Shown here piece by piece: positions 44,898 to 63,999 of a DNA stretch of 64,000 bases. The stretch is from NCBI GenBank assembly GCA_964498245.1, contig CAZCGK010000001.1, positions 36,581-100,580 on the forward strand. The letters run 5' to 3'. The DNA comes from an uncultured archaeon (GTDB lineage: Archaea; Aenigmatarchaeota; Aenigmatarchaeia; QMZP01). Both the position numbers and the translations under genes were made by a program. The notes beneath the pieces are model-generated. The model saw nothing but the letters and a program-made list of their open reading frames with translations. It made no database searches and was not told the DNA's origin. Each line of letters opens with the position of its first letter. Position 1 is the stretch's first letter.

Positions 44898-44908
44898 GAA
44901 GGGAAAAT

Positions 44909-46663: not shown

Positions 46664-46667
46664 GTGC

Positions 46668-47546
46668 TTGAAGATGAAAAAAATTGCATTGATGCTGTTT
46701 GGGGATATAGTAAAACGGTACGTGCCTTATTTCGATACACTCAAAACCAATCTGAAAAAAGCTGGAATAAAGACGCCTGTGCATGAATATTTGTGTAATA
46801 TACTGTTCTATTCGCTTATAACTCTGATTGTATCCATGATTGCAGGGTCTTTTTTTGTTACGCTTCTCATAGGCAATGTGATACCGATTGCAACAGCTGC
46901 AGATATGATATTCGCATATACCTTTTCAATACTACTGTCCATCATTCTTTCAGGAATGATATTTTTATTAGGTTATTATTATCCTTCACTGCTCGCTAAA
47001 AACATGAAAAATAAAATAGACAGATCTCTTCCCTTTGCTGTTTTTTACATGGCAACATCAGCTTCCTCAGGCATAAATCCTGTGGAGATTTTTAAGGCTT
47101 TGGCAAAAAAAGGTGGAATAATAGGCAAAGAAGCGGAAAGGATATATAACGATGTTACATCTCTTGGTATGGATCTTCCCACAGCTATAGAAAGAGCAGC
47201 AAACAGAACACCTTCAGAAATGTTTTCTGATCTCTTGTGGGGAATGTCCTCGGTTATAACCACAGGAGGGGATATTGAAAAATACCTGTCTGGTAAAACA
47301 CGAGTGTTTATGAACCATTACAGAAGATCGCTTAACGAGTATGCAAAAACAATCTCTCTATATACAGAGATATACATTACTCTTGTGATAATAGGTTCGC
47401 TTTTTTCCATAGTTTTAACAGCCATGATGACCCCTTTAGCAGGAAATGTTTTAATGCTTCAAACCTTTCTTGTATTCTTTGTCATACCTTTGGTTTCAAT
47501 AGGGTTTATCATTCTTGTGAGGGGTATATCTCCATCAGAGGTGTAG
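46668..47546 (+). CDS. FlaJ/TadC-like platform protein, N-terminal half (split gene)
   Basis: T2SS-F domain PFAVFYMATSASSGINPVEIFKAL...LPTAIERAA flanked by TM helices. Confidence 0.65.
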   Translation: MKMKKIALMLFGDIVKRYVPYFDTLKTNLKKAGIKTPVHEYLCNILFYSLITLIVSMIAGSFFVTLLIGNVIPIATAADMIFAYTFSILLSIILSGMIFLLGYYYPSLLAKNMKNKIDRSLPFAVFYMATSASSGINPVEIFKALAKKGGIIGKEAERIYNDVTSLGMDLPTAIERAANRTPSEMFSDLLWGMSSVITTGGDIEKYLSGKTRVFMNHYRRSLNEYAKTISLYTEIYITLVIIGSLFSIVLTAMMTPLAGNVLMLQTFLVFFVIPLVSIGFIILVRGISPSEV

Positions 47547-47550
47547 ATCA

Positions 47551-48468
47551 ATGATAAAAATTGCAAGAACAACAATCGCGCTTATCGGTATTGGAGTATT
47601 GCTGATAGGTACAGGTTTGGTGATAGGGGATAGCGGTGTTTTGGGAAATCTCGTGATTATGGCTGTAATAATAAATACGTTTCCGTACTTCCTTAACAGA
47701 TACCTTCGTTATCTGTGGATAAAAAGCGCTGAAGAACACTTTCCAAATTTTATAAGAGATCTTGCAGACTCCGTTCGTTCGGGCATGGCACTTCCAGAGG
47801 CAATAAGTGTTGTCAGCAGATCGAACTACGGGAAGCTTACAGAAGAGATTGTAAAAATGAATAACAGGCTTTCCTGGGGAACACCCTTTCTCCGTGCTTT
47901 GGAAATAATGGAAAACCGTCTAAGGGATTCCAAAATAATATCCGAGGCACTGAAAATAATAAGGGAATCATATGAATCCGGGGGTAATATAGTTTCAACT
48001 CTGGATTCTATCTCTAATGACATTCTCATGCTTAGAGAGGCAGAAGCTGAAAGGCTTTCTATGGTCAAACAGCAAATAATGATAATGTACGGAATATTTG
48101 TTATCTTTCTTGCAATCTCTATCATTATAATAAACATAATGGTTCCTATGATGTCATTCCAGCCTGCTCTGGGAGAAGAGAGTATGGGATTTATTTTTAA
48201 AAATCCCTGTGAGGGTGGGATTTTCTTTCCATGCTCACTCTTTGCAGCGATTAATGCAGTTTTGGGTGTTCCTGAGGGAGGCATAGCTCCATATTATATT
48301 GCACTGTTCTTTACCACCGTGATGATGGAAGGATTATTTATAGGTTTGATAGCAGGTCAGATAGGTGAGAATTCGATAACAGCGGGATTCAAACATTCAT
48401 TAATAATGATGTTTGCAGCATTTGGAGTTTTCCTGTTTTTAATAAAATTGGGTATGATGGCAGTTTAA
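47551..48468 (+). CDS. FlaJ/TadC-like platform protein, C-terminal half (split gene)
   Basis: Second T2SS-F domain FIRDLADSVRSGMALPEAISVV... plus TM helices. Begins 4 nt after the previous stop. Confidence 0.65.
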   Translation: MIKIARTTIALIGIGVLLIGTGLVIGDSGVLGNLVIMAVIINTFPYFLNRYLRYLWIKSAEEHFPNFIRDLADSVRSGMALPEAISVVSRSNYGKLTEEIVKMNNRLSWGTPFLRALEIMENRLRDSKIISEALKIIRESYESGGNIVSTLDSISNDILMLREAEAERLSMVKQQIMIMYGIFVIFLAISIIIINIMVPMMSFQPALGEESMGFIFKNPCEGGIFFPCSLFAAINAVLGVPEGGIAPYYIALFFTTVMMEGLFIGLIAGQIGENSITAGFKHSLIMMFAAFGVFLFLIKLGMMAV

Positions 48469-50521: not shown

Positions 50522-52312
50522 TTATTTGCTCATACTTTCCACTATTCTTCCGTAAGCAGGTCTGGTTACAAGAACGCCTACAAGAACGCCTACAATAGTG
50601 GTTATTGCAAAACCCCGGAGAAAACCTATTCCACCGAGCAGTGGTGTCATTGCGGCTATGGTTGTGGCAGCTGCACCGAAGATTATGAAGAATGCTCTTT
50701 TTATGCTCTCTTTAATTGAATATATTTTTCTTTCCCTTCCTTTCATAAGAGTTTCATCTGCTATTATAATCATATGATCCATTCCTGTACCTATTGCCGC
50801 AAGGATACCGCCTATTGCTGGTAAATCTATTGTCCATCCTCCCATAAGGCCTAAAAGAGGAATGAGCAATGCTCCTATCCATGCATACACATCTACTTCA
50901 TACTTCTTCCACCATGCGGTTGAGATTATTATGAAATTTATGATCAGGATTATGGTCCAGATAAAATAATCATTAAGCGCAGCTATGCCCAAAATTATAA
51001 TTATTTCTGAAAGACCCACAAGAACCATGGGTATCGCGATTTTTAATTTTCTGTATCTTAAAAACACCAGCAAAATCACTGCGCATCCAGCAAGCAAAGC
51101 CGCATGCAACGTTGAAATGAAGAAATCCTTGCCAAGTACCGGAGAGATTATGCTTATGGATGCAATTTCAAGCCCTGTTGGTAAAGCACCTGATCGAAGT
51201 ATAGCTTGAAGCCTCAGTTTTTCCTCCACTGCTTCTTCCATAGTTTGTCTCCATCCTGTTATTTGAGGTGTATCAACAACCTTTCCGCTGAGATCAGATG
51301 ATATTCTCAGATCAGAAACAAGTTTTCCATCGAGATACAGGAAAATTTTAGATGTGAGGTACCTTTCACCTGTTTGGAGGTCTATATAGCTCGGCACACC
51401 GCTTGTTACATCTGCAAATCTCTTTGCTCCATCGTGCGATATAAGAACTGCAAAATAGAATCTGTAACCATTTGATGCTGGTACTACAGCAGACCTTTGC
51501 GGATCTGTGTATACAAGCTCTATATCATCACCTTCATAAACCTTTGCCAAGAAAAGAGCTTCGTTTGCGGTTGAATTGATGTACTCAAATTCTATGTTCT
51601 GGAGGACAAATTTTTCTCTTGGATCAATAACTGAATTGTTCACCACCACGCTTCCGTTGGCAAGCGTTGTAACATCATAGAAATTTGAACCGAGCTGGAT
51701 GCTTCCCTTTCCGTTGGTAATGCTCACGGGCTTGGAAACCTTTGCTTCGAACTTTCCTTCTGTTGATAGGAGTTCTTCTATTACATTACCCTTAACCCCA
51801 GCCATTTCTATCTGCACATAATAATTCCCATCTATTCCTCTTACAGGATAAAAATGCATTTCCTTCAGACCATAAAGATTTGCACGTGTTTGCAGGGTTG
51901 ATATTATCTGATCTATCATATCTTTTGTTGCGTTTTCCTTTGGTTTAAGCAAAATCCTTGTTCCTCCTTTCAGGTCAAGACCAAAATCAATATTTGTTCT
52001 TTCTATATCAACAACATATATTCCTAAACTCTCATTTACATTTAATGTATATCTTTTTCCGTTCGCTATCAATGTGATGTTTCCTGATATATTTGAAATC
52101 ATTTTATTCCAGGATTCCACATTCTTTACTTGTTTATCATTGAGTTGTGTTATTATCATTCCCTGTTCCAGAACACCCCTTGCTGGAGAATCCTTTGCAA
52201 TATAGGCTATCTCAACACCGTTTCTGCCATAGGGATATGCTTTCATGCCTATTGCGAGAATCGAACCGAATACTATTGTTGCGAGTATGACAACACGCCA
52301 GTAGTTGAGCAT
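50522..52312 (-). CDS. secD: Protein-export membrane protein SecD
   Basis: Large periplasmic domain followed by a 6-TM C-terminal domain typical of archaeal SecD. 596 aa, immediately after secF. Confidence 0.75.
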   Translation of the reverse strand: MLNYWRVVILATIVFGSILAIGMKAYPYGRNGVEIAYIAKDSPARGVLEQGMIITQLNDKQVKNVESWNKMISNISGNITLIANGKRYTLNVNESLGIYVVDIERTNIDFGLDLKGGTRILLKPKENATKDMIDQIISTLQTRANLYGLKEMHFYPVRGIDGNYYVQIEMAGVKGNVIEELLSTEGKFEAKVSKPVSITNGKGSIQLGSNFYDVTTLANGSVVVNNSVIDPREKFVLQNIEFEYINSTANEALFLAKVYEGDDIELVYTDPQRSAVVPASNGYRFYFAVLISHDGAKRFADVTSGVPSYIDLQTGERYLTSKIFLYLDGKLVSDLRISSDLSGKVVDTPQITGWRQTMEEAVEEKLRLQAILRSGALPTGLEIASISIISPVLGKDFFISTLHAALLAGCAVILLVFLRYRKLKIAIPMVLVGLSEIIIILGIAALNDYFIWTIILIINFIIISTAWWKKYEVDVYAWIGALLIPLLGLMGGWTIDLPAIGGILAAIGTGMDHMIIIADETLMKGRERKIYSIKESIKRAFFIIFGAAATTIAAMTPLLGGIGFLRGFAITTIVGVLVGVLVTRPAYGRIVESMSK

Positions 52313-52313
52313 A

Positions 52314-53162
52314 TTATGACCTCCTTTTCACATAGAGTTTGATTATTGTTGCGTTTTGAAGCCAGGTATTGATCAGATCTATTACAAGACCGATGATAAG
52401 AACCGAAGCTATCTGGATTAGGATTCTCGAAGAAGAGAGTAAGATCACTGCGGTCAGTGCTGCAAGAGTTGTTCCTGTCATTGTTATACCGGTCTTAAAT
52501 GCGGATTTTACTCTCTCATCTATTTCCATTTCCTCTTTTAGAACTCTTGTGGTAAGGAGTATATCTGTGTCTATGGAATAACCTATGAGCATTAGTATTG
52601 CCGCAAAGCTGGCCAGAGACATGGGTATGCTCAAAATCTGCATGAAAGCAAGGGTAACGATGATATCGGATATAGCTGCAAGCATGACAGCAAATGAGGG
52701 AACAAACGTGCGGAAGATGAAAAAAACTATCAATCCCATGAAAATAAATGCTATGCTTATGCTTATTTGTGCCTGGCGCCAGAAGGATTCTCCTAAAGAT
52801 GGACCTATGGTTTCTATTGAAAAATCACTCACATCAATTCCTATGGTTTTAATCCTTTCTATGATCTGGGTTGCATTTTTATTGTGTTCTGTTTCTATCA
52901 GAATCGTATGGCCAGAAAGGCTTCGAAGTTCTCTTATTAAAACATTGCCTTCCTCACCGAGAACGGTTTCTATTCTTTTTATATCTGGAGGTGTTGGGGT
53001 GTTTATGGTTATTAACATTCCTCCCTTTAATTCTATTGATCTTTCAAACCAGTCACCTGTGGATATATAATGGTTTACAAGTATAAAGATCGAAAAAAGT
53101 AAGAGAGCTACAGGAATGGCCAACGAAATTACATATTTCCAGTTTTCTAATGAGATTTTCAT
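52314..53162 (-). CDS. secF: Protein-export membrane protein SecF
   Basis: SecF-type 6-TM domain (SIETIGPSLGESFWRQA..., IGYSIDTDILL). 282 aa. Confidence 0.75.
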   Translation of the reverse strand: MKISLENWKYVISLAIPVALLLFSIFILVNHYISTGDWFERSIELKGGMLITINTPTPPDIKRIETVLGEEGNVLIRELRSLSGHTILIETEHNKNATQIIERIKTIGIDVSDFSIETIGPSLGESFWRQAQISISIAFIFMGLIVFFIFRTFVPSFAVMLAAISDIIVTLAFMQILSIPMSLASFAAILMLIGYSIDTDILLTTRVLKEEMEIDERVKSAFKTGITMTGTTLAALTAVILLSSSRILIQIASVLIIGLVIDLINTWLQNATIIKLYVKRRS

Positions 53163-53178: not shown

Positions 53179-56100
53179 TTAGAAGGATGAGAACTCCCAC
53201 AGTTTTTTCTGTTTTTCCCTTTTGAAAAATTTCTTTATTCTTTCCTTGAAGTTTTTGGTGTAGGAGTATTCCAAAGATCTGTGTTTCACGTAGTCTCCTG
53301 TATAAGCCAGCGGTCCTGAAGGTATGTTTTCTTTATCGGACTTCGATGCTCCTTTTCTTGTAATTCTCAGGGATTTCATTCTTGTTGTGAATCTTTTTAT
53401 AAGTTCAGAACTGTCTTTTACCGGTTTGTATCCGTATTTTGGATGATATCCTTTATGGGAGAGGAATATATAATAAACGAAAAATATCACAATTATTGCT
53501 ATAAAGATTATGAGTGTCCATATTAACCATTCAGAGGTTCCTTTTACAGTTGTGCCTCCTTTGATTTTTTGAAAGGGTTTCAGAAGTTCCTTTGTTGCAT
53601 TAAGTTTATCCCCTATCAGGGAAATCAGGGATTGTGCGGTAACATAGTCCTTGTTCGTAAGAGAAACGTTTGCTTTTTTCAGCAAATCCTCTATCTCTGT
53701 TATCAAACTCTTCGCCTTTGTGATATTTGTGTTGTTTTCAAACTCCTTTTCGGATTTTAAAGATTCAAGAAGTGATTTCAGTGACTCAAATTCTTCAAAA
53801 TAATTTAAGAGTGTACTGTTTATCTCCTCTATTGTTTCATCCGTGGGTATAATCTTGAGGGTGAAGGCCTTTTCGTCACTTATATCCTCATTTCCTTTCT
53901 TGTATGCTTTGAATGTTCCTATATAATTACCAACCTCTATATCTGATTGTATTGACATGTTTATGGTGAATTCTGTTTCTTCTCCGATAGCAAGGGTTTT
54001 CTCTTCAGGTGTAACAGTAAAGCTTTCAATATATGGAACCACAACGGTTGCTTTTGCTGTGAGACTCAAATTTCCTGTATTCTTTACCTTTACTTTTGCC
54101 AAAACCCATTCACCTGGGTGTGCAATAAGCTCTGAGGGATAATCGGTTATTTCAATTGCATAAGGTGAAAATGATGAGGAGGGTTGGTTTGTGCTTGTCT
54201 GATCTGTGGTTTGTGTGGTTGATTGGTTTCCTGAATCAAGGACCGTGAAGGTGTAGTCAGCATAGTTATAGTAGAGCCTGCTGTCTGCATCCCTTCCTGT
54301 GACATTTATATAGAAATGTTTAGTTCCTGTGGATGTTGCTTCAACCTTTATACCTATGCATGCTGTTGAGTTGCTTTTTCCAGCACCAAGTGAGGTTATG
54401 TTCCAGCAGTGACCCCATGATATGAGAGAAATGGTCACACCAGAGTTTGAATCTGTCCAGTATTTTATCTCGATATTGCTTGCGGGTTTGTTTCCTGTAT
54501 TGGATATTGTGATATTGACTATTTGATATGCGCTTGAACCACCCTGAAGATCAAGGTCGTAAAGGCCTATGGGATTTGAACCCAGTCTTGGGGCTGTTAG
54601 GTTGAAGGTTAAGCTTGATATTCCTGTGTAGTTGTTCTTTGTGATGTTCAGTTTGAGTGTATATATTCCTGGCTGGATGAAACCATTTGCCAGATTTGGG
54701 GCTGTTAGGTTAAACCAGTAATAACCTGAGGAGTTGCCTGTAGCGGAGAGTGTGTAGGTTCTTCCTGAGCTTGGAGAGGTTTCGGAAATCTCGAAGTTCA
54801 GTGATATGTTCAGATCTGTTGCTGGCTCACCGTTTGCGTAAGTCACCGAAATATTGAAAAATACCTGTTCATTGGGATCAACCTTTGCTGGATAGGAGGA
54901 GTTTATCCACGAAGCCCAGCCATAGGAGTTTATAACCGTGATATTGTAACCCACTATTGTTTCGTTATTGAGGATATTGTTGGAGGTTGTTGCCTCGCTC
55001 TCATTTGTTGAAATCTCGGCTGTGATTGTGTGAGAGCCGAATGTAACATAGCTTGTGTTTATCACATCATAGAAGATTACAGTGTATTTTGAACCGTTAG
55101 TGAGACTCTCTGCAGGTATTTCATATGTTCCGTTTATAACTCTATTTGTATATCCATCCCATTTCAGGACCAGAGTTACATTATTGCTTATATTGAAGTC
55201 TCCTGTGTTATTAACTGTAACTGTAATGGTTATCTTGCTTCCTTGAGTTGTGCGATTGTCATTCGGGGATACGCCTGTGGAGTTCCAGATTATGGACTCT
55301 ATTGCAAGGTCTGGGTAAACACCGAATACTGCAAAGGCTGTTGCTGTATAATTCGCATCAGAGCAGTTGATCGTGATGTTATGGGTGGTGCCTGGTGTTA
55401 AACCTGTATGAATTAAGCTGTATGGGGTTGCGTTTGCAACAGAAGCATTGTAGGAATAGTTTCCATCTATATAGATTGAACAGTTCATTGTAGGGGCAAC
55501 GGCATCCGTGGCTGTGAAGCTTATGTTAATGTAGCTCCTGCTTATGTTCGTGTTGTTTACCGGGGAGGTTATGGTTACGGATGGAGCTGTGGTTTCGATT
55601 ATTGCAATCCAACTTCCGTTCCAGCCGAGATTTCCGAAGGTGTCATTCACATAAACAGAATATGTATAAATACCGTCCGTGAGGTTTGTTAGATTATACC
55701 AGCAGTACCTTTCGGTCTTGTTTATATTCATGGTATAGTTTGTTTGGTTGTTCCACTCAAGCAGGCATGAATCCGGATTGACCTCAGAGAATGTTATGTT
55801 TATTAAAATCCAGGTTTTGGCTGTATAGGAGTTGTTTGCAGGGGTTGGTGGGGAGGGGATTATGTTTGTGGGAGGGAAATCGTCTACATCTATTGTTATA
55901 TTTCGTATCTCGGATTGATTTTCGTTGGCGCCATCGGAACACGTTATCCACCAGAGGTATGTTCCGTTAATGAGGGGTGTATTAGCCGTTATAGTTGTGG
56001 GTGTATCGTTCAAAACAGAGGAGTTGGTTCCATATGCATCACTATCTGTTCCATTCTTCAAGTAAAGTGTGCATGATAATAGAGATGCGAAATTGTCTGT

Positions 56101-56943
56101 TACATTGAATGTGAAAGAAGGCGTTCTTGTTGAATTTATTACCGTGTTATTTGCAGGGGACTGGAGATTGATTAAGGGATATTGTCTGTCTAAGGTTACA
56201 AACCATGTTCCGTTCCAGCCTGTGTTTCCTGAAGTATCATTTATGTATACTGAATAATAATGAATGCCTTCGCTCTGATTCGTGGCATTGAAGTAGCAGG
56301 CATAGTTTCCGAGCATGGTCATGGTGTAGTTTGCTTGGGTTCCGTTGTTGAGTTCGAGTATGCATGTATCTGGATTCACCTCAGTAAAGGTTATGTTTAT
56401 TTCGAAGTAATCAGCATTGATAACCGAATTGTTTGCAGGGGTTGGTGGGGAGGGGATTATATTTGCAGGGGGAATTGTATCCAAAACCGTGATTGTGAGA
56501 TTGGTAGAGTTTATCGAGTTATCCGTGAATTTTACGGTTAGTGTGAAATTGTATGTGCCTGTTCCTGAAGGAACGGAAACATTGAACAGAAAATATTCTT
56601 CTGTACCGTTCTGGATAAATCCTGAAGAGGTTGTATTTGTCCATGTTAGGTTTGGGGAGACCGTATAAAAGGATGTGTCTGCAGCAGAGGTTTGGTTGGA
56701 TTCAGAGATAAAGGAAAAGCCTGAAGGGAGTGTTATGTTGACCTCTGTAATATTTAGTTGAGGATCCGTGTTATTAACCGTGAAATTGAGCTGCTCGGTT
56801 GTTCCGGATTCCAGTGTTGTATTTGTGATCTGTGAAGAGAAATTGGATGCATGAATTGAGACAAGGAAAGTTAAAATTGTCATTAAAATGCTAACAGTTA
56901 TTATTCTTCCTCTCTTAGCCAATCCTTTCATCAGCTTCCCCAC
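53179..56943 (-). CDS. Giant cell-surface glycoprotein candidate (S-layer-like; 1254 aa) with a signal peptide, internally duplicated domains, a C-terminal TM anchor and a cytoplasmic tail
   Basis: Signal MKGLAKRGRIITVSILMTILTFLVSIHA. Dozens of N-x-S/T sequons. Duplicated domain PP(A/T)NIIPSPPTPANNS...NITF(T/S)EVNPD(T/S)C(I/L)LE...GNxGWNG(T/S)W, with matching DNA repeats around 55840 and 56440. TM WLIWTLIIFIAIIVIFFVYYIFL near the C-terminus. Confidence 0.65.
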   Translation of the reverse strand: MGKLMKGLAKRGRIITVSILMTILTFLVSIHASNFSSQITNTTLESGTTEQLNFTVNNTDPQLNITEVNITLPSGFSFISESNQTSAADTSFYTVSPNLTWTNTTSSGFIQNGTEEYFLFNVSVPSGTGTYNFTLTVKFTDNSINSTNLTITVLDTIPPANIIPSPPTPANNSVINADYFEINITFTEVNPDTCILELNNGTQANYTMTMLGNYACYFNATNQSEGIHYYSVYINDTSGNTGWNGTWFVTLDRQYPLINLQSPANNTVINSTRTPSFTFNVTDNFASLLSCTLYLKNGTDSDAYGTNSSVLNDTPTTITANTPLINGTYLWWITCSDGANENQSEIRNITIDVDDFPPTNIIPSPPTPANNSYTAKTWILINITFSEVNPDSCLLEWNNQTNYTMNINKTERYCWYNLTNLTDGIYTYSVYVNDTFGNLGWNGSWIAIIETTAPSVTITSPVNNTNISRSYINISFTATDAVAPTMNCSIYIDGNYSYNASVANATPYSLIHTGLTPGTTHNITINCSDANYTATAFAVFGVYPDLAIESIIWNSTGVSPNDNRTTQGSKITITVTVNNTGDFNISNNVTLVLKWDGYTNRVINGTYEIPAESLTNGSKYTVIFYDVINTSYVTFGSHTITAEISTNESEATTSNNILNNETIVGYNITVINSYGWASWINSSYPAKVDPNEQVFFNISVTYANGEPATDLNISLNFEISETSPSSGRTYTLSATGNSSGYYWFNLTAPNLANGFIQPGIYTLKLNITKNNYTGISSLTFNLTAPRLGSNPIGLYDLDLQGGSSAYQIVNITISNTGNKPASNIEIKYWTDSNSGVTISLISWGHCWNITSLGAGKSNSTACIGIKVEATSTGTKHFYINVTGRDADSRLYYNYADYTFTVLDSGNQSTTQTTDQTSTNQPSSSFSPYAIEITDYPSELIAHPGEWVLAKVKVKNTGNLSLTAKATVVVPYIESFTVTPEEKTLAIGEETEFTINMSIQSDIEVGNYIGTFKAYKKGNEDISDEKAFTLKIIPTDETIEEINSTLLNYFEEFESLKSLLESLKSEKEFENNTNITKAKSLITEIEDLLKKANVSLTNKDYVTAQSLISLIGDKLNATKELLKPFQKIKGGTTVKGTSEWLIWTLIIFIAIIVIFFVYYIFLSHKGYHPKYGYKPVKDSSELIKRFTTRMKSLRITRKGASKSDKENIPSGPLAYTGDYVKHRSLEYSYTKNFKERIKKFFKREKQKKLWEFSSF

Positions 56944-57021: not shown

Positions 57022-57717
57022 TTATTCTGCCATTTTTCTGAACTTTTCTGTAAGTTTTCCGTATCTATCCCAGTAATCTCTTGTGTAGTTCAATACCTTT
57101 ACATCACCTATTTTTCCCTTGTCTGAAAGTTCTTTTATACATGCTTCAAGATCTGTACACATCCTTCGAAACTCCATTATTGCAGCAGCCCTTTCTTCGC
57201 TTCCCGGCGGGGCCTTTTTTATTGTGTCAAGTATTCCTTCCAATTTTTTGAATCTGTCTTCTATTTTCTTTCTTAGGTCCTCTTCCTCCTTGGTTATGAT
57301 ATCCAGCATCTTTCTTCTTACAAAATCTCCCATGGCGTTTTTCATACCTCTGGAAACATTCCCGCCTCCACCAGAGGCAGGAGCCATTCTATGCAGTACA
57401 GCCCAGAAACCCCCAAGGAGAATTACAGCGATGAACCAGAATCTGCTTATGTTTAGAAAGATATGATACCAGCCTTGAAAGATTATAAAGAGAAAAATGG
57501 CTATGCTTACAAGGAGGGTGAATTTTGTATTGCCTGTTCTTTGCGATATACCGCTACCGAGAATGTGAACAAAAAGTATCAGAAAAACCATGGGGAAAAA
57601 AAGAAAAAAAACCATCTGCTGTGCTGGGTCCGGATAGGAGTTTATGAAACTCTGACATTCTGAAGCTGTACCCTGCTGGCAAAGAATATCTACAAGAAGA
57701 TCAAGGAGTTCAACCAT
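57022..57717 (-). CDS. Membrane protein with 4 TM helices and a C-terminal cytoplasmic coiled coil (231 aa)
   Basis: Hydrophobic segments plus a Gly-rich linker (ASGGGGN) and a charged helical tail. Confidence 0.4.
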   Translation of the reverse strand: MVELLDLLVDILCQQGTASECQSFINSYPDPAQQMVFFLFFPMVFLILFVHILGSGISQRTGNTKFTLLVSIAIFLFIIFQGWYHIFLNISRFWFIAVILLGGFWAVLHRMAPASGGGGNVSRGMKNAMGDFVRRKMLDIITKEEEDLRKKIEDRFKKLEGILDTIKKAPPGSEERAAAIMEFRRMCTDLEACIKELSDKGKIGDVKVLNYTRDYWDRYGKLTEKFRKMAE

Positions 57718-57765
57718 ATTTATAGTTATATGTGAAGAAATAAATATTCTTGCGAGTATCGTGAA

Positions 57766-58503
57766 TTAAGGTAATTCTTTAATTTTATCCGTTATGTATT
57801 TTGAAAGACCCGGAGATGCTTTCAAATCAACTCCTGCATAGTTCTTGAGAAAAGCCCCTATTGTGTTGTTGAACATCCAGGCAAGCCCCTCTTCTATTTT
57901 GTTTCCCACATCTCCTGCAATTGTAAGAGCCCATTCCGTTCTGTTCTGTCTAGACTGTGATTCCTGATACCTTCTTATCATGTCTTTCATAACTTGGTGA
58001 TGTTCCTGAGCAAAATCGTTCAGGTATTGCATTATCTGCCTTTCCAGAAATGCTTCATAGCCCTTTTCTGCAAGATCTCTTACTTCTTTATTATTCACTG
58101 ATTTGAGATATTCCAGTGCTTTTCCTGTAAGATATTCTATTACTTCTTCATTTTCCTCTTCTGGGAATATTGTATGTATCTTTTCGTGAACATAGGTAAG
58201 AATTCTCTTTCCCTCGTCTTTTTCAATTTCGCTATCAAGGAATATTTCATATTCTCTAAGAGACCCGTCTTCACCGCATTTAATATCTACATATCCATCG
58301 AGTTTCTTTCCTGTTTTCTCATCCCTGAGATTATGTTTGGTTTTGTAGGGTTTTTCCCCCTGAGATATTCTCCATAGGTCTGTATATATTTCATCCATTC
58401 CTTTTTCAAGAAGCAGTTTCTCTCTGCCTGAATTTATGCCGGATATCGGCATATCATCTGAATACAGGTCTTGAAGGTGAAGTTTGAATTTCATAATTGT
58501 CAC
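57766..58503 (-). CDS. Hypothetical cytoplasmic protein. The likely true start is ATG at 58494 (MKFKLHL...); the track starts at a GTG.
   Basis: ORF only; no recognisable motifs. A 9-bp perfect inverted repeat lies 2 nt upstream of the ATG. Confidence 0.4.
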   Translation of the reverse strand: MTIMKFKLHLQDLYSDDMPISGINSGREKLLLEKGMDEIYTDLWRISQGEKPYKTKHNLRDEKTGKKLDGYVDIKCGEDGSLREYEIFLDSEIEKDEGKRILTYVHEKIHTIFPEEENEEVIEYLTGKALEYLKSVNNKEVRDLAEKGYEAFLERQIMQYLNDFAQEHHQVMKDMIRRYQESQSRQNRTEWALTIAGDVGNKIEEGLAWMFNNTIGAFLKNYAGVDLKASPGLSKYITDKIKELP

Positions 58504-58577
58504 TGATAAATAGTGACAATATCGTATTTAAATGCTTTTCTATACTGCAATATAGATTATAGAATGATGATAAAGAA

Positions 58578-59960
58578 TTATTTAAATTTAATTTTATAGA
58601 TTAGGATAGCAATTATGATTACGATCAGCAACAGTATTGCTGTAAGTGTTTCTTTTATTTCTTCTGTGAATAATCCTGCTATCGGAAAACTTGATTTATT
58701 GTTGGTCGTGCTACTGCTAATATTCTGTTCGATTGATTCTATGCATTTGCCGTTCGAGCAGCCGTTTTCGCATTCATATATTTTTTTCCACACACCGTTT
58801 TCGCATTTCCACAGGCTCTTGCCTACACATCGTGTAATGCCTGATTCGCATTCCTCTGTGAGGATGCTTTTGAGGCCGCATGCCTGCTTTTCCGGTGGTT
58901 TGTCTTCTGTTGTATTGCAATTGTTAACATCCACACACTTTCTTGTTTGAGAACCGTTAATACACTGGGACCAGGGGGAGCATTCCCATTCAGGAATGCA
59001 TTCTTCTGGTTGACTTACAAAAAATCCTCCACCACCGGAGCTTCCACCACTTGCCGGATTTGATGGTTGTGAGCATTCACCGCAATCCTCCGGGCAGGAA
59101 GAGCAAGTTTCGCCTATTTCTGAGTTGCATATTCCATCCCCGCAGAACAATTCTTCCCCAAACAAACCGTAAGTGGAGAAATGCGTTACTTCAGCCCACA
59201 CATAGTTTTTTTCTGTGTTTATTCCTTGATTTGGAAGCCTCTCCCAACTTCCTGTTGATTCATTGTAATAGTATAGTTCAAGCGAGTTTTCATTGATGCC
59301 TTCGATTTCTTCTTGACTGTAATACACCCTTAATATCGCGTAGTCAACAATTGAATTATCGATTGTGATTTCAAATGTTTTGAGTTGGGATTTGTTTTCT
59401 AAACGAAATGCTGAAATGGGGTCTCCTTTGTATATTGAGATGGTTACGGGCTGGTTTGTCACATCTCTATTGGTTTTTATACTTAAACTTAATTCTGGAG
59501 ATATATCTTTGCTTATGTTTATCCATCCTTCCTCTGAGGTTGCGTTTATATTTAACGAGCTTGTTGGAGATAGCGAGAGGTTTATATTCTTGATATAGTC
59601 TCCCCTTTTGGCAGAACCAACACACACACCGTTTATTAAAAAGTTTACAGGATCTCCTGCAGTACCGCCAGTGATATGAATGGTATAGTAACCATCTTCT
59701 GTTATTACACAGGATACGCCTTCATTCCCTTCTTGAGGGGGTTGGCACTGACATCTCGGATATGAACACTCAAGATATTCACCATTTAGATATACATCGA
59801 TTTTCGTACCGTTAGGTGCAGGTATTCCGGCGATTTCAACAGTGCCGTAAAATGTGTCTGGAAGAAGGGGCTGCGCGGATCCGGCTGCAATAGAGGTGAA
59901 TAAAGTGAGAGAGGATAATATGAGGATTAGGATATGGTTTTGAAACTTTAAGGGGTTCAT
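58578..59960 (-). CDS. Secreted cysteine-rich protein with a C-terminal TM anchor (460 aa)
   Basis: Signal MNPLKFQNHILILILSSLTLFTSIAAGSA. Module CGDGICNSEIGETCSSCPEDCGEC and further Cys-rich repeats. C-terminal TM LTAILLLIVIIIAILIYKI. Confidence 0.6.
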   Translation of the reverse strand: MNPLKFQNHILILILSSLTLFTSIAAGSAQPLLPDTFYGTVEIAGIPAPNGTKIDVYLNGEYLECSYPRCQCQPPQEGNEGVSCVITEDGYYTIHITGGTAGDPVNFLINGVCVGSAKRGDYIKNINLSLSPTSSLNINATSEEGWINISKDISPELSLSIKTNRDVTNQPVTISIYKGDPISAFRLENKSQLKTFEITIDNSIVDYAILRVYYSQEEIEGINENSLELYYYNESTGSWERLPNQGINTEKNYVWAEVTHFSTYGLFGEELFCGDGICNSEIGETCSSCPEDCGECSQPSNPASGGSSGGGGFFVSQPEECIPEWECSPWSQCINGSQTRKCVDVNNCNTTEDKPPEKQACGLKSILTEECESGITRCVGKSLWKCENGVWKKIYECENGCSNGKCIESIEQNISSSTTNNKSSFPIAGLFTEEIKETLTAILLLIVIIIAILIYKIKFK

Positions 59961-59976
59961 GGCACTCTACCTGGTT

Positions 59977-60438
59977 TTACCTATGGAAGATAAATTTAAA
60001 AAGCATTGCTCCGATCACGATGGTTATTACGACCAAAACCCAAAGAAGAGTTAAGTTTTGTTCCTCTTGATCCTGTATTTGAACGGTGATGTCTGCGGTT
60101 TCTATCTCGCCTGGAATGATTTTCACGGATGTGTTTGTTCTGATACCATTAACGAATATATAGGCGGATTTCCCTTCAAGATCCTTTGAAGGAATGCTAA
60201 GCACATATGCTCCTTCTTCTGTAAGATTATATCGAGCCACTTCCTTGTTATCAACATAAGCTGTAACAATCGTGCCCGGTGGAGCTGGTTTATTGTCTAT
60301 ATACACCTTACCCATGAGGGTAAATGGTAAAACAGGTGGTGCTTGGGGCAATAACGGCTGTGCAGAACCGATCACAGCTTCAAGGATAATAAGAAAAAAC
60401 AGGGAAAAAGCAATTGTTCCGATTCTCATTGATATCAC
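59977..60438 (-). CDS. Small secreted protein with a C-terminal TM anchor (153 aa), paralogous to the N-terminal domain of 58578-59960
   Basis: Shares ...GSAQPLLP... and a following G.V.I...PAP.GT.I..Y..N motif with the neighbouring gene. C-terminal TM LTLLWVLVVITIVIGAMLF. Confidence 0.55.
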   Translation of the reverse strand: MISMRIGTIAFSLFFLIILEAVIGSAQPLLPQAPPVLPFTLMGKVYIDNKPAPPGTIVTAYVDNKEVARYNLTEEGAYVLSIPSKDLEGKSAYIFVNGIRTNTSVKIIPGEIETADITVQIQDQEEQNLTLLWVLVVITIVIGAMLFKFIFHR

Positions 60439-60459
60439 TTACAGCCTTGATGGCTTGGT

Positions 60460-63400
60460 TTATGCTGGTGGAGAGTAGCAGATATTGAGGTAATACAGCT
60501 CTTCGTTACTGTATGTTATCGGAATGTGCAGCCAGTATCCTCTGCCTGGATACATATCTTCTACCGGTAATCCATCTGCATATTGCAGCTCGTAATCCTG
60601 GCTTGCTGGATTATACCAGTATATCACCGATACCTTGTCGAGCAGATCAAAAGGTATGACCGAGGATATATCAGATGGTGAAAGACATGAGTAGCCTATC
60701 AGGTTCCATCCGCCCTTAAGCAGGACTGATGGTATAACCGAAGGTGTGTTCTCATTAACAGCATAGTTCACTCCTATTAACTGATCTGTTTTGGAATACA
60801 CGAAGTATCCATATCCTGGCTCAAGACCCTCTTCAATTACCACCCAGTCTTGGGCTGATGCATCCCAGCCATAGATTGCTGTGATGTTATCATTCTCATA
60901 CATTGCCTGCCATGACTCATCATCTATCGCTTTAGGCACGGATATCTGGTTCCATCCCTGTTTGAGATCGAGGATGAAATCATAGACCTCGATTGCACCA
61001 ACCCGAATTTCATTGTTTTCATTGCCCGCCATGTCGGTGAGATTGATCATCACATAATATGTTCCGTGCGGAACGATATTGCCTTCCTCATCTGTTCCGT
61101 TCCAATCTTTGGTTTGGGGACGTGTTGCAGTACCTGAATCTATTTGCTTCACGAACTCACCGTTGCTGTCAACTATGTAAATCACATAATCAGCTCTTTC
61201 CGAAAATTCAAGGTCAATCTCTGCTCTATTGTACCACACCCACTCCCATCCTTCACCACTCATGGACGGAGCGATCTTGTCGGGTGTTATTGATGCTTGA
61301 GTGACTGTCGGTGGGGTGTTGTCTACTTCTATGCCTGGTTCTTTGTCTGTTCCTGTTAATCCAGCGTCATCAGTTGCTGTGGCTTTTAGTATTACTGCAG
61401 GTGCATTGCCAGGTCCTTGTCCTGTAGAGGTGGTATCCCAATCGAAAGTACCATCAGCGGGAGAGTAGTCTATGCCGATAGTGACCCAAGATTCTCCATC
61501 ATCGGTATCACAATCATCATTTGTATTCAAATCTACACAGTACTCAAAAGTGACAGATTGGGTGTCAGCTGAGGTTTTGTAAGTAATTTGGAATGTTCCA
61601 CTAACAGTTGAATCTGTGGTTGGAGATTGAATTGTGACTGTCGGGTTTACTGTGTCGATGGTTAAATCCGTGACTTCATCCGTTCTTGTTAGTCCGGCGT
61701 CATCAGTTGCTGTGGCTTTTATGATCACATCTGTTAGGTCTAAATCTGTTGTGTCCCAATCGATAGACCATATTCCAGAACTGTAGGATGCAGATCCTAT
61801 GGTGCGCCAATCAGTTCTGTCATAATATTCGAAAACCACTGAAGTGACATCATCATCTCCGGTGGCTTTGAGGGTGTAAGGAGTGCTTGTTATTGTCGCT
61901 CCATCTGAGGGGTCTGTGATCGTGACTGTCGGCGGGGTGTTATCTATCTGTACTGTGACTTCTGTTGGAGCCTCGTTACCAGCATCATCTGTTGCTGTTA
62001 TGGTCACAGTTTGATCATCATCTCCTGTTGTTTCTGAAACTGTTACTTGTGCACCGTAGAGTCCTGGATCTGATTGTCCATCATTATCCCAGTCATAGGT
62101 TGAACCATCATCTTTATACATGGTTATGGAGTTTCCACCTCCTATGCTGGAAGCGTCCAGGATTACACTACTAATATCCACGTCTGGGATTTCTACAGTA
62201 AATGTTAAGGTATCACCATTCTTTGCTTCACTTTGTGATTCTGGGTAGATAATGCTTAGAGCCTGGATGGTGGGTGGTGTGTTGTCAACCGAAACTGCAT
62301 CATCATCTTGTACTGTTACGGAGTTACCCGCATCATCGGTGACTGTTACTGACGCATAGAGTTCTGAGGAATCTATAATATCAATACCATCGCCAGATTG
62401 AGGGACTGTGCAAGTGGCAGTCCATATACCATCATTATCATCATCAGATGCTTGAACTTGGTTACTACATCCGAACGCGGACATATCAACGATAACCGAA
62501 ACTACATCTAGGTTATTGTCCCCATTAGCGGAATTATTCCAAGAAACTGTTATTACATCGTTTGGATTAGCTATTCCATTATCGTTTGCATCCGTGGATA
62601 TTGAAGTTTGGATGTTGGCTTGGGTGACTGTGGGTGGTGTGTTGTCAACCGAAACTGCATCATCATCTTGTACTGTTACGGAGTTACCCGCATCATCGGT
62701 GACTGTTACTGACGCATAGAGTTCTGAGGAATCTATAATATCAATACCATCGCCAGATTGAGGGACTGTGCAAGTGGCAGTCCATATACCATCATTATCA
62801 TCATCAGATGCTTGAACTTGGTTACTACATCCGAACGCGGACATATCAACGATAACCGAAACTACATCTAGGTTATTGTCCCCATTAGCGGAATTATTCC
62901 AAGAAACTGTTATTACATCGTTTGGATTAGCTATTCCATTATCGTTTGCATCCGTGGATATTGAAGTTTGGATGTTGGCTTGGGTGACTGTGGGTTTTGT
63001 TGCATCAACATTTGCTGTGTCTGTATCTGTAACAGAATTACCTGCGTCATCGGTAACAGTCACTGTAAATGTAAATACAGTCGAATCTGCCGTACCTTCC
63101 TCGACAGTGAAGGTGTCGAAATAATAGTTGTTGGTGTTATCCCAACTCAGAGGTTCTGCGGATGATAATCCTATCGCCGATAGGTTGATAGTAACAACTT
63201 CGTTATCATCATGTGAGGCATATACTGTAACAGTTATTTGGTCTTCTATACTGGCTGTTTGACTGTCTGGTTCTATAGAGACGGATGTGATTGTGGGTGG
63301 TGTGTTGTCTATCTGCACTGTGACTTCTGTTGGAGCCTCGTTACCAGCATCATCTGTTGCTGTTATGGTCACAGTTTGATCATCATCTCCTGTTGTTTCT

Positions 63401-63999
63401 GAAACTGTTACTTGTGCACCGTAGAGTCCTGGATCTGATTGTCCATCATTATCCCAGTCATAGGTTGAACCATCATCTTCATACATGGTTGTAGAGCTAT
63501 CACCACCAATATTGGAAGCGTCTAGAATTACTGACTGTACTCCCGCCGTAGCGTCTTGGACGAATGCAAGGATAATAATAATATCTCCATTTTTCGCCTC
63601 ACTTTGTCCCTCAGGATAAATGATACTTACCCAAGAAATTTGAGGTGGTGTATTATCTATTGTGAAATAATCATCAGAAAAATCAAACACAGAATAACCA
63701 TCTTTATCCACAATGTAAATTTTATATTTAGTGCTATCAGGATAGGCTCCTGTAGATGTGTCCCACACATAAGATGTCACACCTGGGGCAATTGCCTTAC
63801 TAATAACATATTGTGTTGAGCTACCGCTACTGTAATCAATAGCATACAACTCAAAGCCATTTGATGAAGTTCCAGTGTAAGTCCAAGTAATGGTCTGTGT
63901 GCCTTTCCAAATCTCTCCACCATTTGGAGAAGTTATTGTTATGGAAGAGGCGGCAAAACCAACATCACCAATCAATCCCATGACAATGAAAAATAACAT
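60460..63999 (-). CDS. Giant adhesin-like surface protein (at least 1179 aa) with Ig-like/Ca-binding-like repeats. The start codon is at the window edge and may extend further.
   Basis: Signal MLFFIVMGLIGDVGFAASS. Repeated T(I/V)TATDDAGN... and DWDNDGQSD motifs. An exact 120-aa tandem repeat and other duplicated blocks. Confidence 0.7.
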   Translation of the reverse strand: MLFFIVMGLIGDVGFAASSITITSPNGGEIWKGTQTITWTYTGTSSNGFELYAIDYSSGSSTQYVISKAIAPGVTSYVWDTSTGAYPDSTKYKIYIVDKDGYSVFDFSDDYFTIDNTPPQISWVSIIYPEGQSEAKNGDIIIILAFVQDATAGVQSVILDASNIGGDSSTTMYEDDGSTYDWDNDGQSDPGLYGAQVTVSETTGDDDQTVTITATDDAGNEAPTEVTVQIDNTPPTITSVSIEPDSQTASIEDQITVTVYASHDDNEVVTINLSAIGLSSAEPLSWDNTNNYYFDTFTVEEGTADSTVFTFTVTVTDDAGNSVTDTDTANVDATKPTVTQANIQTSISTDANDNGIANPNDVITVSWNNSANGDNNLDVVSVIVDMSAFGCSNQVQASDDDNDGIWTATCTVPQSGDGIDIIDSSELYASVTVTDDAGNSVTVQDDDAVSVDNTPPTVTQANIQTSISTDANDNGIANPNDVITVSWNNSANGDNNLDVVSVIVDMSAFGCSNQVQASDDDNDGIWTATCTVPQSGDGIDIIDSSELYASVTVTDDAGNSVTVQDDDAVSVDNTPPTIQALSIIYPESQSEAKNGDTLTFTVEIPDVDISSVILDASSIGGGNSITMYKDDGSTYDWDNDGQSDPGLYGAQVTVSETTGDDDQTVTITATDDAGNEAPTEVTVQIDNTPPTVTITDPSDGATITSTPYTLKATGDDDVTSVVFEYYDRTDWRTIGSASYSSGIWSIDWDTTDLDLTDVIIKATATDDAGLTRTDEVTDLTIDTVNPTVTIQSPTTDSTVSGTFQITYKTSADTQSVTFEYCVDLNTNDDCDTDDGESWVTIGIDYSPADGTFDWDTTSTGQGPGNAPAVILKATATDDAGLTGTDKEPGIEVDNTPPTVTQASITPDKIAPSMSGEGWEWVWYNRAEIDLEFSERADYVIYIVDSNGEFVKQIDSGTATRPQTKDWNGTDEEGNIVPHGTYYVMINLTDMAGNENNEIRVGAIEVYDFILDLKQGWNQISVPKAIDDESWQAMYENDNITAIYGWDASAQDWVVIEEGLEPGYGYFVYSKTDQLIGVNYAVNENTPSVIPSVLLKGGWNLIGYSCLSPSDISSVIPFDLLDKVSVIYWYNPASQDYELQYADGLPVEDMYPGRGYWLHIPITYSNEELYYLNICYSPPA
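62272..62991. repeat. Perfect 2 x 360-bp tandem duplication inside the adhesin gene. Flanked by a dispersed near-identical pair of about 190 bp (61935-62125 and 63300-63490).
   Basis: Sequence lines 62281-62640 and 62641-63000 are identical base for base except at the final junction. The flanking pair was aligned by eye. Confidence 0.85.

What the first reader, a model, noticed from the sequence alone, without database searches (positions are those of the whole stretch)
60460..63999. Giant adhesin gene with a perfect 360-bp tandem duplication nested in a second ~190-bp duplicated pair
Two consecutive 360-bp units (62272-62631 and 62632-62991) are identical base for base. They encode an exact 120-aa repeat (VTQANIQTSISTDANDNGIANPNDVITVSWNNSANGDNNLDVVSVIVDMSAFGCSNQ...DNTPPT). 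They are bracketed by a second near-identical pair (61935-62125 and 63300-63490), giving an A-B-B-A arrangement. Zero divergence implies a very recent duplication or ongoing concerted evolution. The geometry allows repeat-number changes by slipped recombination, which is a classic mechanism for length and antigenic variation in adhesins. It is also a classic assembly-collapse hazard. The protein also carries DWDNDGQSD-type putative calcium-binding motifs.
Basis: seen in the sequence. Interest (0 to 1): 0.55.

Follow-up and report, generated by a model that had tools for sequence, protein, structure and literature searches.

The report
Duplicated domain in archaeal surface protein
A surface-protein gene of a tiny symbiotic-type (DPANN) archaeon carries a base-perfect, in-frame copy of one 120-residue module; this is a familiar way for surface proteins to change, but a second strain shows that the whole outer part of this protein is swapped between otherwise identical genomes.

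Summary
Window 62270-62995 is a perfect period-360 repeat of 2.0 copies. It encodes two identical 120-aa modules in a minus-strand ORF (60460-63999) that runs off the window end.

The gene belongs to an Aenigmatarchaeota (DPANN) archaeon. It encodes a Sec-type, very acidic protein of at least 1179 aa, so it is not giant. The protein is a string of about 100-120-aa beta-sandwich modules joined by DNTPPT linkers: D1-A1-X-B1-B2-A2-C1-C2-FlgD_ig-CT.

The B duplication has a single junction, in a 6-nt microhomology (ACCCAC) supplied by the linker codons.

The outer pair is not a simple duplicate. A1 and A2 are old paralogues, with only 60% nt identity in their N-terminal parts. They share a 163-nt perfect tract, which points to gene conversion.

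Two public short-read assemblies of the same strain stop exactly k (141) and k-1 (30) bases into that tract. The repeat is therefore real, and it breaks assemblies. Copy number 2 may be a lower bound.

A second strain (L084) has 0 differences across the CT domain. It is about 21% diverged in FlgD_ig and unrelated upstream.

Tandem duplication of a surface-protein module is a known kind of event. Adhesion and antigenic variation are not shown.

The parts
60460..63999 (-). ORF for a secreted multi-module surface protein, at least 1179 aa, stop codon at 60460-60462. Its 5' end is cut by the window end.
   Evidence: pI about 4, 12.5% Asp, no C-terminal TM segment.
63943..63999 (-). Tail of an N-terminal signal peptide (MLFFIVMGLIGDVGFAASS). 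The true start codon probably lies just beyond the window.
   Evidence: hydrophobic stretch at residues 1-19. The reading as a signal peptide is an inference.
63640..63942 (-). Module D1 (residues 20-120). It ends in DNTPPQ.
   Evidence: No Pfam family at E<0.09.
63292..63639 (-). Module A1 (residues 121-236, 116 aa), with the DWDNDGQSD loop.
   Evidence: (DUF5110 26.9 bits, Big_7 19.7 bits).
62989..63291 (-). Module X (residues 237-337, 101 aa). Not repeated. It ends in DATKPT.
62629..62988 (-). Module B1 (residues 338-457, 120 aa), first copy of the perfect duplication.
   Evidence: AF2 pLDDT 93.8.
62269..62628 (-). Module B2 (residues 458-577, 120 aa), second copy. Identical to B1 except the last base of the last codon.
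61927..62268 (-). Module A2 (residues 578-691, 114 aa), an old paralogue of A1.
61952..62114 (-). 163-nt tract in A2 with zero differences from 63317-63479 in A1. Read as a gene-conversion tract.
   Evidence: Contigs L001 and L002 end 141 and 30 nt into it.
63317..63479 (-). The partner copy of the 163-nt exact tract, in A1.
62990..62995 (-). ACCCAC microhomology (coding strand) at the X|B1 boundary.
62630..62635 (-). ACCCAC at the B1|B2 junction, the single novel junction of the duplication.
62270..62275 (-). ACCCAC at the B2|A2 boundary.
61639..61926 (-). Module C1 (residues 692-787), Big_7-type Ig domain.
   Evidence: (Big_7 26.4 bits, cut-off 24.1).
61306..61638 (-). Module C2 (residues 788-898), an older paralogue of C1 (47% aa, 55% nt identity).
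   Evidence: (D4).
60985..61305 (-). FlgD_ig-type module (residues 899-1005). About 21% nt diverged from strain L084.
   Evidence: PF13860 35.9 bits, cut-off 27; 3c12.
60463..60984 (-). Conserved C-terminal domain (174 aa) with no Pfam family. It has 0 nt differences from strain L084 and sits at the C-terminus of hundreds of other proteins.
59977..60438 (-). Downstream gene, 21 nt after the stop codon: a 153-aa protein with a signal peptide and a C-terminal TM segment. Homologues follow the large protein in other loci.
58578..59960 (-). Next gene: a 460-aa Cys-rich protein with a signal peptide and a C-terminal TM segment, also syntenic in other loci.

Best explanation
The gene encodes a Sec-exported, highly acidic cell-surface protein of an Aenigmatarchaeota (DPANN) archaeon. 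An N-terminal array of about 100-120-aa Ig-like beta-sandwich modules is joined by conserved D-N-T-P-P-T linkers to a constant C-terminal domain.

Every module ends in similar DNA (...ACnGATGAyGCnGGTAA...GTTGACAACACACCACCCAC...). The gene therefore carries in-frame short direct repeats at its module boundaries. One illegitimate or slipped recombination between two ACCCAC hexamers 360 nt apart, at the X|B and B|A2 linkers, produced a module-precise tandem duplication of B. The copies have not yet acquired a single difference.

Independently, a 163-nt stretch was copied between the old paralogues A1 and A2 by gene conversion. At the population level, the whole array upstream of the C-terminal domain is exchanged between otherwise identical genomes by homologous recombination.

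The array is thus the fast-evolving outward-facing part, and the C-terminal domain is the constant part. I infer, without having shown it, that the array binds a host cell or substrate or acts as a spacer. I also infer that the C-terminal domain docks the protein to the cell, possibly through the two membrane-anchored proteins encoded just downstream.

The 360-nt and 163-nt exact direct repeats are substrates for further in-frame changes: plus or minus 360 nt, or a 1365-nt (455-codon) deletion.
For: Shown:
- Perfect 2 x 360 nt repeat plus 6 nt of shared edge.
- Intact reading frame, with units that coincide with module plus linker.
- Linker alignment shows that X-end and B-end differ up to ACCCAC, and that the B1|B2 junction is B-end followed by B-start. 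This gives one junction in a 6-nt microhomology.
- The A1/A2 mosaic: 60% nt identity over 141 nt with many synonymous differences, then a 163-nt exact tract (61952-62114), which includes the 53 identical codons 175-227, then 5 synonymous differences.
- Age hierarchy in nt identity: B1/B2 100%, A1/A2 81%, C1/C2 55%.
- Independent assemblies L001 (k141) and L002 (Logan) are 100% identical to the window and end at 62092 and 61981. These points are 141 and 30 nt into the exact tract, as expected if the second copy exists in those samples.
- B folds as a confident beta-sandwich (pLDDT 93.8). It is homologous, at 34-59% aa identity, to about 115-aa modules arrayed in large bacterial, CPR and Nanoarchaeota surface proteins.
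- Strain L084 has 0 of 522 nt differences in the C-terminal domain and is about 99.9% identical downstream, apart from one diverged patch. It has 64 nt differences in the 102 aligned FlgD_ig codons and no homology upstream of 61299.
- The host is archaeal: TFB, archaeal pilins, and a FlaI-like ATPase 64-71% identical to that of Aenigmatarchaeota MAGs.
- The C-terminal domain is found at the extreme C-terminus of 738 cluster representatives. Homologues of the two downstream genes follow the large protein in L085, L088 and, more weakly, L089 and L090.
Against: - No reads are available. Copy number two is whatever the source assembler chose, and it may be a minimum.
- No other assembly spans B, so the duplication has no independent confirmation. 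B found nothing in the 5.8-billion-protein word search or in JGI contigs.
- The distant homologue P0021 has a B module followed by a diverged B-like module and then an A-like module. A two-B arrangement could therefore be older than the zero divergence suggests.
- Zero differences in 360 nt is weak as a clock. Two strains differ by only about 2 nt over 1.5 kb of backbone.
- Adhesion, calcium binding and docking through the C-terminal domain are untested. The AF2 model of the C-terminal region is poor (pLDDT 48.8).
Confidence: 0.72

Rival explanations
1. Assembly artefact, or copy number mis-resolved. In the first version the real genomes carry one B copy and the tandem pair was created by the assembler. 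In the second version they carry more than two copies, or a mixture, and the assembler output the minimal path through a loop in the graph.
For: Short-read assemblies demonstrably fail here. L001 and L002 break at the 163-nt tract, and the related contig L084 also ends inside the array. A 366-nt exact repeat is longer than any usual k. No independent contig contains B.
Against: - The B-end|B-start junction sequence occurs nowhere else in the gene. A de Bruijn or overlap assembler needs reads that contain it, so at least two copies must exist in some genomes.
- The duplication is in frame, module-precise and bounded by microhomology, as real events are.
- The 'more than two copies or mixed' version is compatible with the best explanation rather than opposed to it.
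Confidence: 0.12
2. The pair is an old tandem B-B' arrangement homogenised by concerted evolution (gene conversion or repeated unequal crossing-over), not a new duplication.
For: Gene conversion does operate in this gene, as the A1/A2 tract shows. The distant homologue P0021 has B followed by a diverged B-like module and then an A-like module, in the same order.
Against: - A conversion that overwrote a diverged B' would need two independent end points. Here both edges fall in the same 6-nt phase of the unit, as a single-junction duplication predicts.
- B and the B-like module of P0021 are too different to pair for conversion; the BLASTP alignment shows few matches across that module.
- P0021 is only 39% identical overall, so its arrangement may be independent.
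Confidence: 0.13
3. A dedicated variation system, either a diversity-generating retroelement or a site-specific recombinase acting on cassettes, produces the repeats.
For: The literature search returned a DGR survey paper (PMC5758913) that mentions Aenigmarchaeota. From my own knowledge, DGRs have been reported in DPANN archaea. The gene is clearly hypervariable between strains.
Against: - The A1/A2 differences are C/T, G/A, A/C, A/G and C/G, not adenine-specific.
- Both copies lie inside one ORF and encode identical protein in the tract.
- All repeats found in the gene (direct repeats only) are direct; inverted repeats were not searched for.
- No other copy of any module exists elsewhere in the 64-kb window.
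- No reverse transcriptase or recombinase was noticed in the ORF list.
Confidence: 0.03

Closest known systems
Gram-positive surface proteins with DNA-identical tandem repeats (alpha C / Rib of Streptococcus agalactiae, Aap/SasG, Esp, Bap). Cited from general knowledge, not tested here.
   Same: Whole Ig-like modules are encoded by in-frame tandem DNA repeats with no divergence. The repeats are substrates for copy-number change by recombination. The protein is exported and exposed.
   Different: There are only two copies here. The organism is an archaeon. There is no LPXTG or cell-wall anchor and no Rib or G5 domain hit. No evidence of copy-number polymorphism is available.
Large bacterial repeat proteins that carry the same ~115-aa module (P0001 Azospirillum sp. 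with DUF4347 and RTX repeats; P0010 Thauera DUF4347 protein; P0005, P0009, P0014, P0028) and the closest single-module match, P0021
   Same: The B module aligns end to end with these modules (34-59% aa identity). It shares the W30, GDNNxD, TDDAGN and VDNxxPT motifs and the same head-to-tail arrangement with xPT linkers.
   Different: Those proteins have 3-9 diverged copies and, in the cases seen, RTX/T1SS or autotransporter features. This protein has a Sec-type N-terminus, no HemolysinCabind hit and a different C-terminal domain.
Fast-evolving hypothetical cell-surface proteins of DPANN archaea (Nanoarchaeota single-cell study, PMC6142677)
   Same: It is a surface protein of a DPANN archaeon that varies far more between close strains than the rest of the genome does. 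That paper reports significantly higher non-synonymous SNP density in hypothetical cell-surface proteins.
   Different: The variation here comes from module duplication, conversion and replacement of the whole array, not from point substitutions. The phylum is different, and no host is known.
FlgD Ig-like domain (PF13860), and its use next to C-terminal sorting domains of bacterial secreted proteins
   Same: Residues 927-990 pass the Pfam cut-off (35.9 bits against 27 when scanned alone). They also match the solved FlgD-type structure 3c12 (E=1e-3).
   Different: It is not a flagellar hook protein. The CHU_C/T9SS signal is below cut-off (25.6 bits against 27), and archaea have no T9SS.

Membership tests
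Tandem-repeat (identical-repeat) surface proteins, as a functional kind | In-frame tandem DNA repeats with about 100% identity, each encoding one structural module | tested here: met
   TRF period 360, 2.0 copies, 100%. Units equal module plus linker. Confident beta-sandwich model.
Tandem-repeat (identical-repeat) surface proteins, as a functional kind | Repeat number varies among strains or within populations | not testable with these tools
   No reads are available and no other contig spans B.
Tandem-repeat (identical-repeat) surface proteins, as a functional kind | Exported and surface-located | tested here: inconclusive
   A hydrophobic N-terminal stretch ends in AAS at the window edge. 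There is no C-terminal anchor. Localisation is inferred only.
Bacterial Ig-like domain families (Big_7 PF17957, Big_13 PF19077) | Score above the Pfam gathering cut-off | tested here: met
   Big_7 scores 26.4 bits against 24.1, for residues 690-754 (module C1) only. Big_13 is below cut-off. The B module alone matches no Pfam family.
Ig-like beta-sandwich fold (module B) | All-beta sandwich that matches solved Ig-like, PKD or MG domains | tested here: met
   AF2 gives pLDDT 93.8 and 8 strands. Foldseek against PDB gives only generic hits (alpha-2-macroglobulin MG, PKD, SoxYZ; best E=3e-3, TM 0.42-0.49). The fold class is met, but there is no close solved relative.
RTX / type 1-secreted giant adhesins (LapA, MpIBP, SiiE type) | C-terminal RTX nonapeptide repeats with a T1SS signal; length of several thousand aa | tested here: not met
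   No HemolysinCabind hit. The length is at least 1179 aa. The C-terminus is a different domain. The organism is an archaeon.
LPXTG / sortase-anchored adhesins | C-terminal LPXTG motif, hydrophobic segment and charged tail | tested here: not met
   The C-terminus is ...YYLNICYSPPA, with no hydrophobic segment.
Thrombospondin type 3 / cadherin calcium-binding repeats | Pfam TSP_3 or Cadherin match | tested here: not met
   Neither is listed at E<=0.1 for the whole protein or at E<=1 for single modules.
DxDxDG-type calcium-binding loops | D-x-[DN]-x-[DN]-G motif present; metal actually bound | tested here: inconclusive
   There are six motif matches, at residues 181, 350, 399, 470, 519 and 636. 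Binding cannot be tested here.
FlgD_ig (PF13860) | Score above the gathering cut-off | tested here: met
   29.5 bits in the full protein and 35.9 bits for the module alone, against a cut-off of 27. PDB 3c12 at E=1e-3.
T9SS C-terminal sorting domain (CHU_C) | Score above the gathering cut-off, located at the extreme C-terminus | tested here: not met
   25.6 bits against 27, and the match lies about 190 aa before the C-terminus.
Diversity-generating retroelement target | A template/variable repeat pair differing at adenines, with a nearby reverse transcriptase | tested here: not met
   The A1/A2 differences are of mixed types. Both copies are coding. No extra copy exists in the window. The reverse-transcriptase search was not systematic.

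The most novel reading that the evidence does not exclude
The gene may be the variable 'payload' of a conserved, so far undescribed three-gene surface module of DPANN-type archaea. The module consists of a large protein whose constant ~170-aa C-terminal domain (no Pfam family; 738 cluster representatives) docks onto two co-encoded membrane-anchored proteins (~150 aa and ~450 aa). In this reading, the exchangeable Ig-module array sets what the cell attaches to, such as the host. The module-boundary repeats would be the built-in means of reshaping that specificity by duplication, conversion and cassette replacement.
Probability: 0.2. Interest if true: 0.6.

Novelty: new member of a known kind. 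Interest (0 to 1): 0.3.

Why it matters
DPANN archaea are thought to live attached to other cells, and the proteins that mediate attachment are mostly unknown. This locus offers a concrete candidate. One strain pair shows the signature expected of a specificity determinant: an identical backbone with a replaced outer array. The gene itself shows three ways in which such arrays are remodelled. Practically, it is a documented case in which a 163-nt and a 366-nt exact repeat break MEGAHIT and Logan assemblies at predictable bases. Such genes will therefore be systematically truncated or collapsed in metagenome bins. The duplication itself is an ordinary event for a repeat-module surface protein.

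Tried and rejected
- Exact look-ups. The 153-aa neighbour and TFB returned nothing. Look-ups of the 460-aa and 231-aa neighbours found three contigs, but only two were returned. The third (50-200 kb), presumably the window's source, was not shown, so the missing 5' end could not be recovered.
- GTDB genome scan with the C-terminal 281 aa: no relative.
- JGI metagenome scans, with a 37-nt B pattern and with the C-terminal 251 aa: nothing.
- Word-indexed search with B alone: nothing.
- Structure. The C-terminal region (281 aa, 2-sequence alignment) gave pLDDT 48.8 and was not used for fold search. PDB fold search of B gave only generic beta-sandwich matches.
- Repeats in other loci. TRF on L085 and L088 found no comparable recent repeats in the analogous genes.
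- Sample identity. A paper search for SRR7051320 found nothing.
- DGR and recombinase explanations were rejected for the reasons given under rival explanations.
- The idea that the contig is a chimera of two alleles was rejected. All four flanks of the A tract are distinct, and they are only consistent with one linear gene, possibly alongside a deletion variant.
Full report
**1. Observation**

Tandem Repeats Finder reports one array at 62270-62995: period 360, 2.0 copies, 100% matches, no indels. It is the only large tandem repeat in the window. A direct comparison confirms that 62272-62631 and 62632-62991 are identical. Offset-360 identity covers 366 positions, so the repeat is two units plus a 6-nt shared edge. 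The outer pair, 61935-62125 and 63300-63490, differs at 4 of 191 positions. Similarity extends to 245 nt at 93%.

**2. The gene**

The repeats lie in a minus-strand ORF, 60460-63999, of 1179 codons. The ORF reaches the window edge. Its first 19 residues (MLFFIVMGLIGDVGFAASS) look like the hydrophobic core and cleavage region of a signal peptide, so only a few codons are probably missing. That is an inference.

The protein has pI about 4, 12.5% Asp, 12.2% Thr and under 3% Lys plus Arg. It has no C-terminal membrane segment.

Splitting at the recurrent D-N-T-P-P-T linker gives these modules:

| Module | Residues |
|---|---|
| D1 | 20-120 |
| A1 | 121-236 |
| X | 237-337 |
| B1 | 338-457 |
| B2 | 458-577 |
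| A2 | 578-691 |
| C1 | 692-787 |
| C2 | 788-898 |
| FlgD_ig-type | 899-1005 |
| C-terminal domain (CT) | 1006-1179 |

Pfam support is thin. Big_7 scores 26.4 bits on C1, FlgD_ig scores 29.5-35.9 bits, and DUF5110 scores 35.6 bits across the two A modules. B and CT match nothing.

The order is therefore A-X-B-B-A with all repeats direct. At about 1.2 kaa the protein is not giant.

**3. Organism and neighbourhood**

The window encodes TFB, archaeal type IV pilins, a FlaI-like ATPase, two FlaJ/TadC-like proteins and SecDF. The ATPase is 64-71% identical to that of many Candidatus Aenigmatarchaeota MAGs, and no closer genome exists among GTDB representatives. The host is therefore a DPANN archaeon without a close sequenced relative.

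The gene heads a co-directional run. A 153-aa protein starts 21 nt after its stop codon, followed by proteins of 460, 245, 231 and 1254 aa. The 153-aa, 460-aa and 1254-aa proteins have an N-terminal signal-like segment and a C-terminal TM segment. The 1254-aa protein has 81 N-glycosylation sequons.

**4. Module B**

B alone found nothing in the word-indexed 5.8-billion-protein search. A phmmer search against the hits of the whole-protein search shows that it belongs to a widespread ~115-aa module. This module is arrayed 3-9 times in large bacterial proteins: P0001 from Azospirillum with DUF4347 and RTX repeats, P0010 from Thauera, and P0005, P0009, P0014 and P0028. It also occurs in CPR and Nanoarchaeota proteins. 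The closest match is P0021, at 59% identity.

With a 27-sequence alignment, AlphaFold2 gives a confident eight-strand beta-sandwich (pLDDT 93.8). Foldseek against PDB returns only generic Ig-like, PKD and MG matches (best E=3e-3, TM at most 0.49).

Conserved acidic positions (GDNNxD, TDDAGN, VDN) and six DxDxDG-like loops make calcium binding plausible. It is untested.

**5. How the B duplication arose**

The module ends share DNA: the TDDAGN codons and GTTGACAACACACCACCCAC for VDNTPPT. X ends with GATGCAACAAAACCCAC, and B ends with GACAACACACCACCCAC. After ACCCAC, the X|B1 and B1|B2 junctions continue with the B start (AGTCACCCAAGCC), whereas the B2|A2 junction continues with CATCCAGGCT.

The structure therefore has one novel junction, B-end joined to B-start. 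The switch point lies inside a 6-nt microhomology, at the end of a longer stretch in which X-end and B-end are only loosely similar. This is what a single slipped or illegitimate recombination event predicts. It yields an in-frame copy of exactly one module plus linker.

**6. The outer pair**

A codon-by-codon comparison shows three zones:
- The first 47 aligned codons are 60% identical in DNA, with 17 synonymous and 20 nonsynonymous codon differences and a 2-codon indel.
- Codons 175-227 (630-682 in A2) are identical at every base. They sit inside a 163-nt exact tract, 61952-62114 = 63317-63479.
- The linker codons then carry 5 synonymous differences.

Uniform divergence at the pair's average of 81% cannot produce 163 consecutive matches (0.81^163 is about 1e-15; my calculation). 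A1 and A2 are old paralogues that share a recent gene-conversion tract. Together with C1/C2 (55% nt identity), the gene records duplications of three ages.

**7. Independent assemblies**

Exact look-up of the neighbouring 460-aa protein returned two other contigs: L001 (ENA ERZ27248349, k141_611995) and L002 (Logan SRR7051320). Both are 100% identical to the window. They end at 62092 and 61981.

These ends are 141 and 30 nt into the exact A tract. They mark the first k-mer (k=141) and the last k-1 overlap that lie wholly inside the repeat; the second figure rests on my assumption that Logan uses k=31. The second copy of the tract, with the same boundary, must therefore exist in those samples.

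None of these contigs reaches B. The B-end|B-start junction sequence is unique, so an assembler needs reads that contain it. At least two copies are therefore real in some genomes. The true number could be higher or mixed.

**8. A second strain**

The C-terminal 251 aa has one relative in the large protein database: P0121, 92% identical. It lies on a 3986-bp contig (L084, QMQA01000184.1) that is binned as a Candidatus Aerophobetes bacterium.

DNA comparison shows the following:
- There are 0 differences over the 522 nt of CT.
- The next ~3.5 kb is about 99.9% identical, except for one patch in the 460-aa gene.
- There are 64 differences in the 102 aligned FlgD_ig codons, of which 25 codons differ synonymously and 24 nonsynonymously.
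- There is no homology upstream of 61299, where L084 encodes a different Ig-type module.

A change this abrupt, at a module boundary and on an identical backbone, indicates allelic replacement of the array by recombination.

**9. Wider family**

CT matches 738 cluster representatives (E<=1e-3), nearly always at the extreme C-terminus of proteins of 150-2700 aa. Their other domains are beta-helix, PKD or Ig. The CT region of these proteins has no Pfam family either.

In the four loci examined, the large protein is followed by homologues of the window's small partners:
- L085: proteins of 146 and 475 aa (E=6e-13 and 2e-17).
- L088: proteins of 136 and 438 aa (E=2e-18 and 4e-7).
- L089: a 487-aa protein (E=2e-8, over a Cys-rich segment).
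- L090: weakly (E=0.004).

They suggest a conserved cassette, which was only partly followed up.

P0021 is colinear with the window protein (X-like, B, a diverged B-like module, A-like, CT-like). This keeps open the idea that a two-B arrangement is older than it looks here.

**10. Verdict**

The feature is real: a module-precise tandem duplication in a recombination-prone surface-protein gene of a DPANN archaeon. The mechanism (microhomology at linker codons, with gene conversion between paralogous modules) and the kind of gene are well known from bacterial repeat proteins. This is therefore a new member of a known kind.

The points that add value are the demonstrated assembly breakpoints, the mosaic nature of the outer pair, the strain-level replacement of the array, and the possible conserved three-gene cassette with an unannotated C-terminal domain. 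Adhesion, calcium binding, antigenic variation and copy-number polymorphism remain inferences.

Noticed in passing
window 58578-60984; L085 4108-9195; L088 8001-14398; L089 6001-12215; L090 43-4938: A recurring gene order. A large multi-domain surface protein ends in the same unannotated ~170-aa C-terminal domain. It is followed by a ~140-150-aa and a ~440-490-aa signal-plus-TM protein that are homologous to the window's 153-aa and 460-aa proteins (E from 2e-18 to 4e-3). In L085 and L088, a giant Ig/PKD/cadherin protein (3597 aa and at least 2073 aa) follows.
   Followed up: partly
window 60463-60984 (-): The C-terminal 174-aa domain has an internal two-fold pattern (L.LK.GWN.I... / ...PG.GY.). 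It has no Pfam family, yet it matches 738 cluster representatives, almost always at the very C-terminus of proteins of 150-2700 aa. The AF2 model with 2 sequences was poor (pLDDT 48.8).
   Followed up: partly
L084 (QMQA01000184.1, GCA_003648845.1) vs window 57441-61299: A 3986-bp contig binned as 'Candidatus Aerophobetes bacterium' is essentially identical to this archaeal (Aenigmatarchaeota) contig. It is probably mis-binned.
   Followed up: partly
window 58870-59400 (-), inside the 460-aa gene: A second diverged patch between the window and L084 sits on an otherwise identical backbone. It has about 27 nt differences plus a 3-nt indel, giving 10 aa changes clustered at residues 239-253, 280 and 350-354. 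It looks like another small recombination or diversification tract in a surface protein.
   Followed up: partly
window 53179-56943 (-): A 1254-aa protein with a signal-like N-terminus, a C-terminal TM segment, 81 N-glycosylation sequons, and CARDB and Big_7 hits. It is a candidate S-layer or major surface glycoprotein, directly upstream of secF/secD (52314-53162, 50522-52312).
   Followed up: no
window 43330-48468 (+): An archaeal type IV pilus-like locus. It has three small pilin-like proteins (one with a Pilin_N hit), a FlaI-like ATPase (44909-46663) and two FlaJ/TadC-like membrane proteins. It lies about 12 kb from the surface-protein cluster.
   Followed up: no
window 15417-15507: An AT-rich 34-bp tandem repeat, 2.7 copies, 84% matches. 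The unit, TTTAGTTAATTATAATTAACTAAAAATATTAAAT, contains a palindrome. It sits in the gap just upstream of the ORF that starts at 15509.
   Followed up: no
window 1-64000: ARAGORN finds no tRNA gene in 64 kb.
   Followed up: no
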